A DNA stretch of 64,000 bases, taken from Alphaproteobacteria bacterium (GTDB lineage: Bacteria; Pseudomonadota; Alphaproteobacteria; UBA7879). Both the position numbers and the translations under genes were made by a program. Position 1 is the stretch's first letter. Every line of letters starts with the position of its first letter. The notes below the pieces were generated by a model. It searched no databases, was not told where the DNA came from, and worked only from the letters and a program-made list of their open reading frames with translations. The DNA is taken from positions 55,789 through 119,788 of the forward strand of contig PKTP01000010.1 of assembly GCA_002869105.1 (NCBI GenBank), written 5' to 3'. Below, piece after piece: positions 7,071-56,538 of the stretch.

Positions 7071-7819
7071 TTACTCCTTCCATGCATGATACGCACGCAC
7101 CACACCACATGCGTAATTTTTAACAGATATAGACTGATAGTTTGCCTCTTCTAAAAGCTGGCAAAATGTCTCTGGCGCCATAAATGTTTCAATGCTCTCG
7201 GCTAAATATTGATAAGCCGCCTCATTTTTGGCAACCCATTTTCCCATCAGGGGCAACAACCCAAAAGCATAGCCATCATAGATCCTTTTAATCACCTGGC
7301 TTTTGGGTTGGCTGAATTCCAAGCAATGAAAAGAGCCGCCGGGCCCCAAACACCGATAACTTTCTTTCAAAGCGGCCTGAACATCAGACACATTTCGAAT
7401 GCCAAAGGCAATGGAATACGAATCAAAAGCATCTGATTCAAAGGGCAAACGCTCTGCATTGGCGTGTATCCAGTCAATATTTTTAAAGAGGCCTTGATTA
7501 AACAGCTGATCCTGGCCCTTTTTGAGCATCTCTTCATTTAAATCAGTTGCAACAATCTGATAATCAAGGTTGTTCTTTTCCAGTCGACGTACAAGGGCGG
7601 CTGTAATATCACCCGTTCCAGCAGCCACATCCAGATGCTTCAGACCAGGCTTTAGCGGAAAGTCAGCAACAAATGATTTTTCCAAAGACGGTGTTGAAAT
7701 CCACTCATTAAGTCGTTCATCAGATCATATAGATCAGAAACATCGGAAAAAATCTTTTGAACACCCTCTCTTTTTTCTTCAGGGGTCACTTTTTGAAAAC
7801 CAAAGGGAGTTTGTGTCAT
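7071..7819 (-). pseudogene. ubiE: ubiE/menG demethylmenaquinone/ubiquinone C-methyltransferase, frameshifted: N-terminal 55 codons (7819..7655) are in a different frame from the SAM-MTase body (7685..7071)
   Basis: The upstream frame from the ATG at 7819 encodes MTQTPFGFQKVTPEEKREGVQKIFSDVSDLYDLMNDLMSGFQHRLWK..., a clear UbiE N-terminus. It runs into a stop at 7652. The body LDVAAGTGD... is in the frame one base off and, taken alone, would need a TTG start. A 5-nt homopolymer (T5 on +, 7677..7681) sits at the junction, and one extra A would restore ...HRLWKKSFVADF.... Confidence 0.7.
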
Positions 7820-7921
7820 GTGGTGCCCTTTCTAACAACCCGCCCAGTTGACCGTATAATAAAAATTTTAAATGTCAAAATTGTCTGTGCGCCCATCTGT
7901 TTTTATACAATTTAAAATAAA

Positions 7922-9163
7922 ATGAGTATTTTTTTAGTTTTACATCCTAGGGTTGATGTTTTAAACCTAATTTCTATGACAGTGCATTCGCTTTACACAT
8001 TCAAAAAAATAATTGGATTCAGTGCCTTAGTCCTATCTTCTGCCTTTGCCATGTTTTGTATGTTCTTTGGCTCAGGCAATCTTATTTTTCCTCTGGCAAT
8101 TGGTCAAAAAACAGGCAGCGCCTATGTGTACGGCATTCTCGGACTCACAATAACCGGTATCATATTACCATTCTTCGGTTTGATTGTGACGTTTTTATTC
8201 CAAGGATCTTATCAAAACTTTTTCAAAAATTTTGATCGTCGATTCGGCATCGTCATGCCCCTTGTTATATTATCACTGATGGGCCCTTTTGCTGTTATGC
8301 CGCGGTGCATTACAGTTGCTCATGGAAGCTTTCTTCTGGTATCGCCCGATACTTCCATCTGGCAATTTAGTCTTTTCAGTTGCTTCATCATCTATATCCT
8401 GTCTTTTGACAAAGGAAAAATCGTTCCCCTTCTTGGCAGCGCGTTAACCCCGATCCTGCTATTTTCACTGGGAATGATTATTTATTCAGGGATCTCCGCA
8501 GCCCCTAAAGTGCCGCTCAACCCAGAGACGCAAAAGGCTTTTTTGACCGGGATGCATGATGGATATCAAATGATGGATTTGTTTGCCGCTTTCTTTTTTT
8601 CTGCAACGGTCGTCTCTTATCTCAAGGCAAAGCTCAGCCATAAAAAAATCTCCGCAACATCGCGCGTACAACTCATCGTAGCCTCGCTCACATTGGGGGC
8701 CGTCTTCCTAGCTGTGATCTATGCCTTTCTCATTTATCTGGGCGCTGCCTACAGTCAAGAATTAGCAATTGTTCCAGTCGAGTCACGCCTGGCTTACATT
8801 GCTCAAAAAACCCTGGGTCATATTGCCGGGCCTATGGTTGCAACCGCCGTGGGTCTGGCGTGCATTACAACGGCTATTGTTCTCACATCGGTGGTAAGCG
8901 ACTATTATCAGAAAGTCCTATTTCGCTCAAAAATATCTAAGGGGGCAACCAATGTCTTGATTCTCACCATAACTTTTTTTATTTCAACGCTCAAATTTAA
9001 CGGCATCGCTCAATACCTCTCCCCAATTCTCACCTTTCTTTACCCTGGCATCATTATGATGACGCTCCTGTCCCTTGGACAAAAACTGTTTAATTGGCCC
9101 TATCCACGCTGGATCATTGTGGCGGTTTTTGTCCTTACCTTTCTACGAATGGTTCTAAATTAG
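7922..9163 (+). CDS. brnQ: Branched-chain amino acid transport system II carrier protein (LIVCS family)
   Basis: 413-aa polytopic membrane ORF with the LIVCS signature FGSGNLIFPLAIGQ near the N-terminus. The true start may be the internal Met at about 7976. Confidence 0.75.
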   Translation: MSIFLVLHPRVDVLNLISMTVHSLYTFKKIIGFSALVLSSAFAMFCMFFGSGNLIFPLAIGQKTGSAYVYGILGLTITGIILPFFGLIVTFLFQGSYQNFFKNFDRRFGIVMPLVILSLMGPFAVMPRCITVAHGSFLLVSPDTSIWQFSLFSCFIIYILSFDKGKIVPLLGSALTPILLFSLGMIIYSGISAAPKVPLNPETQKAFLTGMHDGYQMMDLFAAFFFSATVVSYLKAKLSHKKISATSRVQLIVASLTLGAVFLAVIYAFLIYLGAAYSQELAIVPVESRLAYIAQKTLGHIAGPMVATAVGLACITTAIVLTSVVSDYYQKVLFRSKISKGATNVLILTITFFISTLKFNGIAQYLSPILTFLYPGIIMMTLLSLGQKLFNWPYPRWIIVAVFVLTFLRMVLN

Positions 9164-9250
9164 TAAAAAACCAAATCCTTTTTTATTTTAAGGTTTTTTT
9201 AAAATTAAGAATCAACTAAAGATAAAGAACCCAATAACAAAGGAAAAGAT

Positions 9251-54229: not shown

Positions 54230-54644
54230 TCTATTTCAAGATCCAGCTTTTTGGTATGCCGTCTCCTTCGCACTCTTTGCCGCTGTTGCCGGGCGTCGGG
54301 TCGTCAAGTTGGTTCAAGGCATGGTTCAATCTTATCGTCAGAGCATCTTGGATGATCTACAAGAAGCCCAAGCCCTTAAAGCGGAGGCCCACAGAGTTCA
54401 TGCCCAAATACAGCACGAGATTGCCCATTGGCCAGATGAAGAAAAAACCAAGCGCCGGCGTCAACACCAACAAATAAAAGATCTTAAAATCGCTTACGAA
54501 GAAGGCTATCAAAAACTCTTGCACCAAAAAACGCAAGGAAATGAAAGCTACATCCAAGCAAAAGAGGTCGAAAGCCGTAAAAGACTCGAAAGCCTTATTT
54601 CCGAAGAGATTATCACCAAAGTCCGCCACGATATTTTAACGTAA
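54222..54644 (+). CDS. atpF: F0F1 ATP synthase subunit b
   Basis: 140-aa ORF with an N-terminal TM helix (FWYAVSFALFAAVA) and a charged helical stalk. It overlaps the b' stop. Confidence 0.7.
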   Translation: MANLFQDPAFWYAVSFALFAAVAGRRVVKLVQGMVQSYRQSILDDLQEAQALKAEAHRVHAQIQHEIAHWPDEEKTKRRRQHQQIKDLKIAYEEGYQKLLHQKTQGNESYIQAKEVESRKRLESLISEEIITKVRHDILT

Positions 54645-54754
54645 AGTCCCCACAGTTTTGCTGCGCTTCAAGCGTGATTCGCCATAAAAAGCTTGTCTTT
54701 TCAGCTCTCAAAATTCATGATAATTTTACATAAATCCAAAAGAGTAAGCTGAAG

Positions 54755-55309
54755 ATGAATTCTTCAAGGGACGAGCTATCCGATACAGGCAAAAAAAGAC
54801 GTGATTTTATCACGCTCACAGCAACAGCCATGGGCGGTGTCTTAGCTGGCTCCATTGCCTGGCCTCTTCTTCAAAGCATGAACCCTGCAGCAGATACGCT
54901 GGCTGAATCCGTTACCGAGGTTAATCTTGCGCCCATCTTATCCGGTGCGGCTCTCACCGTTATTTGGCAAGGTAAACCTGTTTTCATTCGCCATCGAACC
55001 GACCGGGAAATCGCCGAAGCAGTGGATGCCCCCTTGTCCACATTACCAGATCCTCAAGAAGACAAAGCACGGGTTCAAAAACCCCAGTGGCTGGTGGTCA
55101 TGGGAATTTGTACCCACCTGGGATGCGTTCCTCTTGGTCAAAAAAAAACAGAGACACGGGGAGAATATGGCGGCTGGTTCTGCCCCTGTCATGGCTCGCA
55201 CTATGATACATCAGGCCGAATCAGAAAAGGGCCAGCCCCAACCAATCTTGTTGTACCGCCCTATAACTTTATCAGCGATCAACTCATTCGAATTGGAAGG
55301 GAAGAGTAA
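54755..55309 (+). CDS. petA: Ubiquinol-cytochrome c reductase Rieske iron-sulfur subunit
   Basis: Rieske boxes CTHLGCVP and CPCHGSHYD. A Tat-like N-terminus (KRRDFITLTATAMGG). Confidence 0.9.
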   Translation: MNSSRDELSDTGKKRRDFITLTATAMGGVLAGSIAWPLLQSMNPAADTLAESVTEVNLAPILSGAALTVIWQGKPVFIRHRTDREIAEAVDAPLSTLPDPQEDKARVQKPQWLVVMGICTHLGCVPLGQKKTETRGEYGGWFCPCHGSHYDTSGRIRKGPAPTNLVVPPYNFISDQLIRIGREE

Positions 55310-56538
55310 TGTCTGACGGTGGGTCCAACCCTTATCGCCATCCGTTTGTCCGCTGGCTTGAAAAGCGTTTGCCGATCATCAGCTTTGTAGAGCACGCCCT
55401 CAAAGGCTACCAGGTCCCTAAAAACCTCTCGATCCTCTGAACAAGTGGGTTTATCGCCGGCTTCATGCTGGTGGTGATGATCCTCACTGGGATCTTGCTC
55501 GCCATGCATTATGTCCCCCATCCCGATCATGCCTTTGATAGCGTTGAGCGCATCATGAGAGAGGTTAATTTCGGCTGGCTCATTCGCTATCTTCATGCCA
55601 ACGGTGCGTCGCTGTTTTTCTTGGTTGTGTATATGCACATGTTCCGGGCGCTCTATTACGGCTCCTACAAATCACCGCGAGAAGTGTTATGGATCATCGG
55701 CATGATTATTTTCCTGGTCATGATGGCCACCGCTTTCTTAGGCTATGTGTTGCCCTGGGGGCAGATGAGTTATTGGGGCGCCACAGTCATCACCAATCTT
55801 TTTACAGCGATCCCCTGGATTGGGGATAGCATTCTTGAATGGCTGCTTGGTGCACCTTACGTAGGGGCGCCTGCTTTGAACAAATTCTTTGCGCTCCATT
55901 ATTTGCTTCCCTTCCTCATGTTTTTACTGGTCTTTATTCACATATGGGCCCTGCACACCCATGGATCCAATAATCCCACCGGTATTGAACCTAAAACCGC
56001 CGAAGACACCCTTCCCTTCCATCCCTATTACACTGTTAAGGATCTCCTTTCTATCGCCGGATTTATGGTGATTTTTGCTTTTTTCATTTTCTTTGCGCCC
56101 AACTTTTTTGGGGAGCCCGAAAATTACATCCCCGCTGATCCAATGGTCACCCCCGACCACATTGTGCCTGAGTGGTACTTTCTTCCGTTTTATGCGATTT
56201 TGCGCGCCATTCCCGATAAATTAGGGGGCGTTGTTGCCATGATTTCATCGATTTTGGTGTTGTTTGTGTTGCCCTGGCTTGATGGCTCCAAAGTTAAAAG
56301 CTGCACGTTCCGACCGATTTTTCGGGCCCTGTTCTGGGTTTTTGTTCTCGATGTTCTCATTCTAGGCTGGGTAGGTGCTAAACCAGCTGAAGGGCATTAT
56401 ATTGGAATCGGGCAATGGGCCACCGCTTATTACTTCATTCACTTTTTAATTTTGGTGCCCCTCGTAAGCCGTTTTGAAAAGCCCAGTGGCTTGCCCGACT
56501 CTCTCTCTGCCTACTATCGAGACAAGGGCTGTTCATGA
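55309..56538 (+). CDS. petB: Cytochrome b of the bc1 complex; full-length frame carries a single in-frame TGA at 55438..55440
   Basis: TAATG overlap with petA. The frame from 55309 encodes [70 protein letters not shown]..., collinear with cytochrome b N-termini (...PKNLNYWWNFGSLAG...). The ORF-track ORF 55465..56538 is the downstream 357 aa in the same frame, with heme-ligand His residues intact. Confidence 0.85.

What the first reader, a model, noticed from the sequence alone, without database searches (positions are those of the whole stretch)
7071..56538. Cluster of subtle ORF disruptions in conserved genes: genome erosion, recoding, or systematic sequence error
Within 64 kb there are four independent lesions in otherwise well-conserved genes: the ubiE homopolymer frameshift, the ihfB TAA, an OMP TGA, and the petB TGA. 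All other genes read cleanly under the standard code, and long genes such as gdh (1588 aa) and polA have no internal TGA. A global UGA=Trp code (table 4) is therefore ruled out. Both TGA cases still leave conserved downstream sequence, which is unusual for old pseudogenes. The pattern fits (a) a host-associated genome in early reductive evolution, (b) low-level UGA suppression tolerated at a few sites, or (c) a consensus of modest quality. Which of these applies changes how every other truncated ORF in this genome should be annotated.
Basis: inference. Interest (0 to 1): 0.5.

Follow-up and report, generated by a model that had tools for sequence, protein, structure and literature searches.

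The report
Recent gene-killing mutations in a symbiont
The broken genes are real mutations that arose recently in one lineage of an uncultured Holosporaceae-related bacterium. This is ordinary early gene decay, falling partly on respiration genes, not a changed genetic code and mostly not sequencing error.

Summary
Three of the four reported lesions are as described. ubiE has a 1-base deletion (A6 to A5). A Pom-family outer-membrane protein and petB each carry an in-frame TGA, and both replace an invariant Trp that is TGG in relatives.

The "ihfB TAA" is misread. TAA is the native stop, and the real lesion is a 48-bp in-frame deletion between AAGGCA repeats.

I found two further lesions:
- A GAA-to-TAA change splits an ~824-aa hypothetical gene inside the window.
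- A TGG-to-TAG change truncates coxA 7.4 kb upstream of the window.

The petB, pom and ihfB lesions recur in separately assembled samples that differ from the window by 0-0.3%. They are absent from a sister lineage about 97% identical. The ubiE and hypothetical-gene lesions are absent from one near-identical strain.

TGA ends about a quarter of the genes here, including polA at its canonical C-terminus. Only 2 of 224 Trp positions are TGA, and stop codons are unchanged relative to the sister lineage, so code 4 is excluded. The Trp origin of the nonsense codons is explained by transition bias in Trp-rich, Gln-poor membrane proteins.

Best reading: recent pseudogene formation in a probably host-dependent bacterium, hitting complexes III and IV and ubiquinone synthesis. 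Leaky UGA read-through cannot be excluded, but nothing supports it.

The parts
7071..7819 (-). ubiE (ubiquinone/menaquinone C-methyltransferase), split into a 55-aa N-terminal ORF (7652..7819) and a 204-aa C-terminal ORF (7071..7685) by loss of one A from an A6 run. The run is T5 on the + strand at 7677-7681.
   Evidence: Pfam Ubie_methyltran matches both pieces, at profile positions 7-38 and 46-233. Strain ERZ24794615 (L007, 99.88% identical) has one more T here and an intact 249-aa gene. There is no X XXY YYZ slippery heptamer, and the downstream fold has z = +0.25.
23286..23516 (-). ihfB-like gene (HU/IHF family), 76 aa. It keeps its native start and native TAA stop but has a 48-bp (16-codon) in-frame deletion. 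The junction is at 23309/23310, next to the repeat TGCCTT at 23310-23315 (AAGGCA on the gene strand).
   Evidence: Pfam Bac_DNA_binding matches profile positions 1-69 of 90. Homologues are 92-99 aa. P0121 reads ...TGKA-INVCARYIPFFKVGKA-LNESLNS where the window reads ...TGKA-LNESLNS. The DNA alignment with L096 shows the 48-bp gap flanked by AAGGCA. The same 76-aa product is found in ERZ24794615, SRR28062646 and ERZ24794578.
33303..34295 (-). Pom-family outer-membrane beta-barrel gene (330 codons) with an in-frame TGA at 33531-33533 replacing an invariant Trp. The true stop is TAG at 33303-33305.
   Evidence: The Pfam PF17251 match spans the stop. Trp is present at this column in all 6 homologues, including sister-lineage P0132 at 95% identity. 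tblastn with table 11 shows W, hence TGG, in UBA7879 and ERP116193. The TGA is present in ERZ24794615 (L014) and SRR28062646 (L015).
55309..56538 (+). petB (cytochrome b of the bc1 complex, 409 codons) with an in-frame TGA at 55438-55440 replacing the invariant Trp of the ...NLS(I/V/Y)xW... motif at the start of helix A. petA (54755..55309) and petC (56535..57311) are intact.
   Evidence: Translation and sequence are. The stop aligns with Trp in solved bc1 structures and in 9 of 9 homologues. The codon is TGG in sister-lineage L099, 96.9% identical. The same split is seen in L001-L004. dN/dS against the sister is 0.096.
57363..59837 (+). Hypothetical gene of about 824 codons, split into 278-aa and 498/504-aa ORFs by a TAA at 58197-58199.
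   Evidence: There is only one stop in 825 codons. The codon is GAA in L003 (ERZ24794615), whose ORF runs through it. Homologues of the downstream ORF are 792-875 aa, with the match starting at residue 332-385.
37340..40057 (+). polA, shown as a control. It is a 905-aa gene that ends at TGA directly after the canonical C-terminal ...AEAH, so UGA terminates translation in this organism.
   Evidence: ORF list and translation are. The same TGA is present in the sister lineage.

Best explanation
The window comes from an uncultured alphaproteobacterium whose nearest named genomes are Holosporaceae MAGs. One shallow lineage of it (lineage A, the window) has recently accumulated inactivating mutations that a sister lineage (B, about 97% nucleotide identity) lacks.

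**Shown**
- Lineage-wide lesions: petB TGG to TGA, pom TGG to TGA, and a 48-bp ihfB deletion between short direct repeats.
- Lesions absent from at least one near-identical strain: a 1-base deletion in ubiE and a GAA-to-TAA change in a hypothetical gene.
- Just upstream of the window, coxA carries TGG to TAG.
- UGA is an ordinary stop codon in this organism.

**Inferred**
- These are ordinary spontaneous mutations: G-to-A transitions at Trp codons, slippage at a homopolymer, and a repeat-mediated deletion.
- They were fixed by drift or relaxed selection in a host-dependent bacterium.
- The affected genes are non-functional or nearly so.
- Cytochrome b, cytochrome oxidase subunit I and ubiquinone synthesis are all hit while petA, petC, coxB, ctaB, ctaG, ccmABC and the atp genes stay intact. 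This suggests the cytochrome-c branch of aerobic respiration has only just become dispensable.

The downstream sequence still looks conserved simply because too little time has passed for it to decay.
For: **Lesions are real sequence features.**

**Ancestral states in close relatives**
- petB is TGG in L099, and Trp is invariant in 9 homologues and in PDB structures.
- pom has Trp in 6 of 6 homologues, and tblastn shows W (hence TGG) in two Holosporaceae MAGs.
- ihfB is 92 aa in sister lineage P0121/L096, and the 48-bp gap is flanked by AAGGCA.
- ubiE is an intact 249-aa gene with A6 in L007.
- The hypothetical gene has GAA in L003, and its homologues are 792-875 aa.

**Reproducibility.** The petB, pom and ihfB lesions are found in contigs from ERZ24794615 (which carries 0.1-0.3% SNPs), SRR28062646 and ERZ24794578, as well as SRR5894286, JGI 3300007102 and ERZ794996.

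**UGA is a stop**
- TGA ends 18 of 67 long ORFs, including polA at ...AEAH.
- There are 2 in-frame TGA against 222 TGG.
- All 9 TGA stops among 30 genes compared are identical in lineages A and B.

**A non-UGA lesion of the same kind.** coxA has an in-frame TAG at the Trp of HFW.

**The Trp origin is expected.** With Ts/Tv 2.69, the share of nonsense mutations arising from TGG is 0.52 in petB, 0.53 in coxA and 0.24 in pom.

**Taxonomy and lifestyle context**
- FabI is 95% and 89% identical to two Holosporaceae MAGs.
- Holosporales are described as obligate intracellular symbionts, several with ATP/ADP translocases (PMC9992710).
Against: - Loss of function is not demonstrated.
- dN/dS against the sister lineage is low for petB (0.096) and ihfB (0.036). 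This fits either very recent lesions or continued function, and there are too few substitutions inside lineage A to tell them apart (petB: 2 synonymous, 1 non-synonymous).
- Host association is inferred from the names of related MAGs, not shown for this organism.
- The ubiE and hypothetical-gene lesions are seen only in assemblies that may share one read set.
- The concentration on respiration is 3 of about 16 respiratory genes against 3 of about 69 others in the roughly 84 kb examined. These are my rough counts, and the difference is suggestive, not significant.
- coxA could not be checked in lineage B or in other lineage A strains.
Confidence: 0.8

Rival explanations
1. Leaky UGA read-through. 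The two TGG-to-TGA changes are real, but near-cognate tRNA-Trp reads UGA often enough to give some wild-type cytochrome b and Pom. The mutations would then be only mildly harmful, could be fixed, and the genes would remain under selection.
For: - Both in-frame TGAs sit exactly on invariant Trp codons, so read-through by tRNA-Trp would restore the normal protein.
- Both are fixed across all lineage A samples.
- petB dN/dS is low, and its partners petA and petC are intact.
- The pom TGA is followed by C, which in E. coli is the weakest termination context (my own knowledge).
- A hairpin begins 13 nt after the petB TGA (z = -2.49, 3 of 200 shuffles). A synonymous GCA/GCC difference from the sister gives it one more base pair in the window.
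Against: - The Trp origin is expected from composition and transition bias.
- coxA carries TAG at a Trp codon and the hypothetical gene carries TAA, neither of which tRNA-Trp would rescue.
- There is no shift away from TGA stops in lineage A.
- The pom site has no downstream structure (z = +0.24).
- The hairpin result is one of three folds tested and lies in G/U-rich transmembrane coding sequence.
- Typical natural read-through of a few percent or less (my own knowledge) would leave little bc1 complex.
Confidence: 0.1
2. Assembly or sequencing error: the lesions are consensus mistakes with no biological meaning.
For: - The ubiE lesion is a homopolymer length change, a classic error type.
- The 204-aa ubiE fragment was found only on two contigs, from SRR5894286 and ERZ794996.
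- The large contigs have near-identical lengths (224,622 and 224,710 bp), so they may come from one sample.
Against: - The petB, pom and ihfB lesions recur in contigs built by different pipelines from different accessions. ERZ24794615 carries its own SNPs.
- A 48-bp deletion between repeats and G-to-A or G-to-T substitutions are not typical consensus errors at 17x coverage.
- A5 is a short homopolymer, and at least two assemblers agree on it.
Confidence: 0.05
3. Programmed recoding or a genetic-code change: UGA reassigned to Trp (table 4) or to selenocysteine, and a programmed -1 frameshift in ubiE.
For: Two UGAs lie at Trp positions. The ubiE shift is -1 and sits on a run of A.
Against: - TGA terminates about a quarter of the genes, including polA at its conserved end.
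- Only 2 of 224 Trp positions are TGA.
- Rfam finds no SECIS or other recoding element, and homologues have Trp at these sites, not Cys or Sec.
- A near-identical strain has ubiE in a single frame.
- The ubiE site has no canonical slippery heptamer and no stimulatory structure.
Confidence: 0.02

Closest known systems
Split genes and young pseudogenes in Rickettsia and in recently host-restricted bacteria such as Sodalis glossinidius and Mycobacterium leprae (my own knowledge)
   Same: Single stop codons, 1-base homopolymer frameshifts and small repeat-mediated deletions appear in otherwise well-preserved genes. Close relatives have intact copies and the flanking genes are intact.
   Different: Here the contrast lies within about 3% nucleotide divergence in uncultured Holosporaceae-related lineages. 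The total pseudogene load of the genome is unknown, because only about 84 kb were examined.
Loss of energy metabolism and ATP import in Holosporales and Rickettsiales (tlc ADP/ATP translocases; PMC9992710)
   Same: This is a related taxonomic group, and respiratory-chain genes (petB, coxA, ubiE) are among the genes hit.
   Different: No tlc gene lies in the region examined. The ATP synthase, ccm, petA, petC, coxB, ctaB and ctaG genes are still intact, so any loss of respiration would be at its very start and is not demonstrated.
UGA-to-Trp reassignment (translation table 4) in Mycoplasmatales, Candidatus Hodgkinia, Zinderia and Nasuia (my own knowledge)
   Same: In-frame UGA occurs at conserved Trp positions.
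   Different: Here UGA is still a frequent genuine stop, and fewer than 1% of Trp positions are affected. A TAG at a Trp codon and a TAA at a Glu codon accompany the two TGAs.
Natural low-level UGA read-through by tRNA-Trp in E. coli and Bacillus subtilis (my own knowledge)
   Same: It would insert Trp at exactly the residue lost in petB and pom.
   Different: No evidence of read-through exists for this organism, and it is not needed to explain the sequence.

Membership tests
Recent pseudogenes / reductive genome evolution | The lesion is absent from closely related genomes, which carry the intact ancestral state | tested here: met
   petB is TGG in L099. pom has Trp in P0132, L016 and L017. 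ihfB is 92 aa in P0121/L096. ubiE is 249 aa in L007. The hypothetical gene has GAA in L003.
Recent pseudogenes / reductive genome evolution | The lesion is reproducible in independent sequence data, so it is not an assembly artefact | tested here: met
   Met for petB, pom and ihfB, which recur in ERZ24794615, SRR28062646 and ERZ24794578. Inconclusive for ubiE and the hypothetical-gene TAA, where sample independence is unproven.
Recent pseudogenes / reductive genome evolution | Mixed lesion types, as expected from undirected mutation | tested here: met
   The lesions are a 1-base deletion, a 48-bp repeat-mediated deletion, two TGG-to-TGA changes, one GAA-to-TAA change, and one TGG-to-TAG change just upstream.
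Recent pseudogenes / reductive genome evolution | Relaxed selection (raised dN/dS) after the lesion | tested here: inconclusive
   dN/dS against the sister lineage is 0.096 for petB and 0.036 for ihfB, typical of intact genes. That measure spans mostly pre-lesion time. Within lineage A there are only 3 substitutions in petB.
Recent pseudogenes / reductive genome evolution | Host-restricted lifestyle | not testable with these tools
   Only inferred from the nearest genomes being named Holosporaceae and from the literature on the order. Sample metadata could not be retrieved.
UGA=Trp genetic code (table 4) | UGA is not used as a terminator | tested here: not met
   18 of 67 long ORFs end in TGA, including polA at ...AEAH and petB itself. 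Nine TGA stops are conserved between lineages.
UGA=Trp genetic code (table 4) | In-frame UGA is common at Trp positions across genes | tested here: not met
   There are 2 TGA against 222 TGG in 19,644 codons.
UGA=Trp genetic code (table 4) | Loss of release factor 2 (prfB) and a tRNA-Trp with a UCA anticodon | not testable with these tools
   The window holds only tRNA-Gln, tRNA-Met and tRNA-Gly. Neither prfB nor tRNA-Trp lies in the roughly 84 kb examined.
Selenocysteine recoding | A SECIS hairpin directly after the UGA, and Cys or Sec at that position in homologues | tested here: not met
   Rfam finds no match. Homologues have Trp. The pom downstream fold has z = +0.24. petB has a hairpin 13 nt downstream (z = -2.49), but Trp homology argues against Sec.
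Programmed -1 ribosomal frameshift | The shift is conserved in relatives, with an X XXY YYZ slippery site and a downstream stimulatory structure | tested here: not met
   A 99.9%-identical strain has a single-frame gene. The site reads G AAA AAT. The downstream fold has z = +0.25.

The most novel reading that the evidence does not exclude
Lineage A may sit at an ambiguous-decoding stage, in which UGA at former Trp codons is read by tRNA-Trp often enough to keep petB and pom functional while UGA still serves as a stop elsewhere. That would be a living intermediate on the road to the UGA=Trp code seen in mitochondria and in some reduced symbionts.
Probability: 0.06. Interest if true: 0.75.

Novelty: new member of a known kind. 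Interest (0 to 1): 0.25.

Why it matters
**Annotation.** In this genome, truncated or split ORFs should be annotated as pseudogenes under the standard code (table 11). They should not be rescued with table 4 or treated as assembly errors. A Logan gene call on a short contig did run straight through the pom TGA, which shows the risk. I think an automatic choice of table 4 caused it, but that is my guess.

**Biology.** Two lineages about 3% apart, one with intact and one with broken petB, pom and ihfB, give a small natural snapshot of the first steps of gene loss in a protist-symbiont group. The breaks may include the onset of losing cytochrome-c-dependent respiration. That is useful but not surprising.

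Tried and rejected
- **Trp origin of the stops.** I first took "all in-frame stops lie on Trp" as a possible signal of UGA decoding. With genome-wide codon usage it looks unusual: P(TGG source) is about 0.17, and P(TGG to TGA) about 0.08. It stops being unusual once each gene's own composition is used: 0.52, 0.53 and 0.24. The coxA stop is also TAG, not TGA.
- **Shared sequence after the stops.** TRA-MCAAGT follows the pom and petB TGAs and the ihfB TAA. 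The window has 7 matches against 2.06 expected, but three of the seven defined the pattern, so nothing remains.
- **Apparent read-through gene call.** A gene call on L015 seemed to show an intact pom in SRR28062646. The DNA is 100% identical to the window, TGA included.
- **Metagenome scan for coxA.** The search for lineage B coxA was swamped by distant COX1 genes (best 73% identity) and gave nothing usable.
- **Sample metadata.** Two literature searches for the sample and MAG accessions found no papers.
- **prfB and tRNA-Trp.** These could not be looked for, because look-ups are limited to proteins of this window and its immediate flanks.

Full report
**What the window is**

The 64 kb has about 43% G+C and is densely packed with alphaproteobacterial housekeeping genes. 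A scan of one genome per GTDB species with the FabI protein gave two close hits: "Holosporaceae bacterium UBA7879" (95% aa) and an "uncultured Holosporaceae bacterium" MAG (89%). Everything else was at 69% or below. The species itself is not a GTDB representative.

Exact-protein look-ups found the same DNA in several public assemblies. These are Logan SRR5894286, JGI 3300007102, ENA ERZ794996, ENA ERZ24794615, ERZ24794578 and Logan SRR28062646, at 99.7-100% identity. I call this group lineage A.

A second group of samples carries a sister lineage B at about 97% nucleotide identity. It comprises SRR29340335-7, ERZ27315540/374/384, JGI 3300012270, 3300028377, 3300038695 and 3300011187, and SRR5216652. 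The measured divergence is 2.8% over 26.5 kb.

**Checking the four reported lesions**

*ubiE.* Two overlapping minus-strand ORFs match the N-terminal and C-terminal parts of Pfam Ubie_methyltran. The reading frames join at a run of five A. In ERZ24794615 (L007, 13 SNPs in 11.8 kb) the run has six A and the gene is a single 249-aa ORF. The lesion is therefore a 1-base deletion.

*petB.* A TGA at 55438-55440 divides a 409-codon cytochrome b gene into 43 and 357 codons. The stop aligns with Trp in solved bc1 structures and with Trp in all nine homologues aligned. Lineage B has TGG.

*Outer-membrane protein.* This is a Pom-family beta-barrel (PF17251), and the Pfam match runs across a TGA at 33531-33533. 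All six homologues have Trp there. tblastn with table 11 shows W, hence TGG, in the two Holosporaceae MAGs.

The closest homologue, P0121 (97% identical, 92 aa), reads ...TGKA-INVCARYIPFFKVGKA-LNESLNS. The window reads ...TGKA-LNESLNS followed by TAA. The DNA alignment shows a clean 48-bp gap flanked by the direct repeat AAGGCA, with the same TAA and the same 3' intergenic sequence in both lineages. So the stop is native and the lesion is a 16-codon in-frame deletion. By my knowledge of the HU/IHF fold, the deleted segment holds the returning strand of the DNA-binding arm and the conserved IPFFKxGK stretch.

**Further lesions**

Comparison with L003 (ERZ24794615) showed that the TAA ending ORF 57363..58199 is GAA in that strain. 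There the ORF continues through the site. In the window, the 825-codon frame 57363..59837 has this single internal stop. Homologues of the downstream ORF are 792-875 aa, with the match starting near residue 332-385. This is a fifth lesion inside the window.

I also walked 9 kb beyond each end of the window. Upstream, coxA is called as 423 aa followed by a 300-nt gap. Translation shows one in-frame TAG at the Trp of the conserved ...HFW... motif, after which the rest of COX1 continues in frame. The downstream flank shows no split genes by length or Pfam content.

**Are the lesions errors?**

The petB, pom and ihfB lesions are present in ERZ24794615 contigs, which carry their own SNPs. They are also present in SRR28062646, and ihfB additionally in ERZ24794578. 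These are different accessions and different assemblers, so the three lesions are real and fixed across lineage A.

The ubiE frameshift and the hypothetical-gene TAA are seen in the window and in the SRR5894286, ERZ794996 and JGI 3300007102 assemblies. The contigs are nearly equal in length, which suggests a shared sample. The window differs from two of these assemblies by one SNP in 19 kb. Error is unlikely: coverage is 17x, the homopolymer is short, and the other change is a G/T substitution. It is not formally excluded for these two sites.

**Is UGA recoded?**

- TGA terminates 18 of 67 long ORFs. These include polA directly after the canonical ...AEAH, and petB itself.
- In 63 curated genes there are 222 TGG and 2 in-frame TGA.
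- For 30 genes compared between lineages, all stop codons match apart from two trivial differences, including 9 TGA stops. So there is no sign that lineage A is avoiding TGA as a stop.
- Rfam finds only three tRNAs (Gln, Met, Gly) and no recoding element.

I tested whether "nonsense codons fall on Trp" is itself a signal. With the observed transition/transversion ratio (2.69) and window-wide codon usage, only about 17% of nonsense mutations should come from TGG. But cytochrome b and COX1 are Trp-rich and Gln-poor. Within those genes the expectation is 52% and 53%, and in pom it is 24%. The joint probability, about 0.07 by my multiplication, is unremarkable. One of the three Trp hits is TAG, not TGA. 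A shared sequence after the stops proved to be chance.

A hairpin starts 13 nt after the petB TGA (z = -2.49). A synonymous difference from lineage B strengthens it slightly. It is one of three folds tried, and I treat it as a loose end.

**Timing and selection**

Between lineages A and B, dS is about 0.09. dN/dS is 0.04-0.45 across 20 genes, with petB at 0.096 and ihfB at 0.036. The damaged genes were therefore under normal constraint for most of that time.

The lineage-wide lesions arose after the A/B split and before the shallow diversification of A (0.1-0.3%). This is why the sequence downstream of the stops still looks conserved. Within lineage A there are 25 synonymous and 23 non-synonymous differences. 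That is too few per gene to test for relaxed constraint after the lesions.

**Interpretation**

The simplest account is recent pseudogene formation by ordinary mutation in a lineage with weak purifying selection.

Three of the six lesions in the roughly 84 kb examined hit aerobic respiration: cytochrome b, cytochrome oxidase subunit I, and ubiquinone methylation. Their partners petA, petC, coxB, ctaB, ctaG and ccmABC, and the ATP synthase genes, are intact. Holosporales are described as obligate intracellular symbionts, several of which are thought to import host ATP (PMC9992710). I therefore infer, without proof, that the cytochrome-c branch of respiration has recently become dispensable in lineage A.

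Leaky UGA read-through (option b) would restore the native residue at both TGAs and cannot be excluded. Nothing in the sequence requires it.

**Verdict**

This is a real but ordinary phenomenon. It comes with one correction (ihfB) and two additions (the hypothetical gene and coxA). Interest is low to moderate.

Noticed in passing
L109 1592-3166 (about 7.4 kb upstream of window position 1, same contig): coxA (cytochrome c oxidase subunit I) has an in-frame TAG at the conserved Trp of ...HFW..., giving 423-aa and 91-aa ORFs. The neighbouring coxB, ctaB and ctaG look intact.
   Followed up: partly
window 57363-59837: A hypothetical gene of about 824 codons is split by a TAA at 58197-58199. The codon is GAA in strain ERZ24794615, and homologues are 792-875 aa. 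No Pfam family matches it.
   Followed up: yes
window 55451-55477 (+): An 11-bp hairpin starts 13 nt after the petB TGA (z = -2.49). The window has GCC where lineage B has GCA, a synonymous difference that adds a C-G pair to the stem.
   Followed up: partly
window ~41696-41700; L101 1436-2593: Lineage B carries an extra 1158 bp here, with a 243-aa gene that has a faint ankyrin-repeat hit. The window lacks it. The more distant UBA7879 lacks both this gene and the neighbouring 196-aa ORF, so the direction (gain or loss) is unclear.
   Followed up: partly
window 33303-34295 (-): The outer-membrane protein belongs to Pfam PF17251 (Pom), described from Protochlamydia. I read its presence in a Holosporaceae-like alphaproteobacterium as a possible exchange between symbionts of protists.
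   Followed up: no
window 49335-51743 (+): An ~800-aa protein is made of two tandem D-Ala-D-Ala ligase modules (Dala_Dala_lig_N and _C, twice). This is an unusual fusion.
   Followed up: no
window 23757-23820 (-), hypothetical 230-aa gene: Seven SNPs fall within 64 bp between the window and ERZ24794615, six of them synonymous. Nearby genes differ very little. This could be a small recombination tract or a mixed-strain assembly.
   Followed up: no
L015 809-1099 (= window 33303-33593): The public gene call on this short Logan contig reads straight through the pom TGA although the DNA is identical to the window. I suspect the gene caller chose translation table 4.
   Followed up: partly
window 3057-3668 (+): A 203-aa regulator matches only Trans_reg_C and has no recognisable receiver domain. 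It may be a degenerate response regulator.
   Followed up: no
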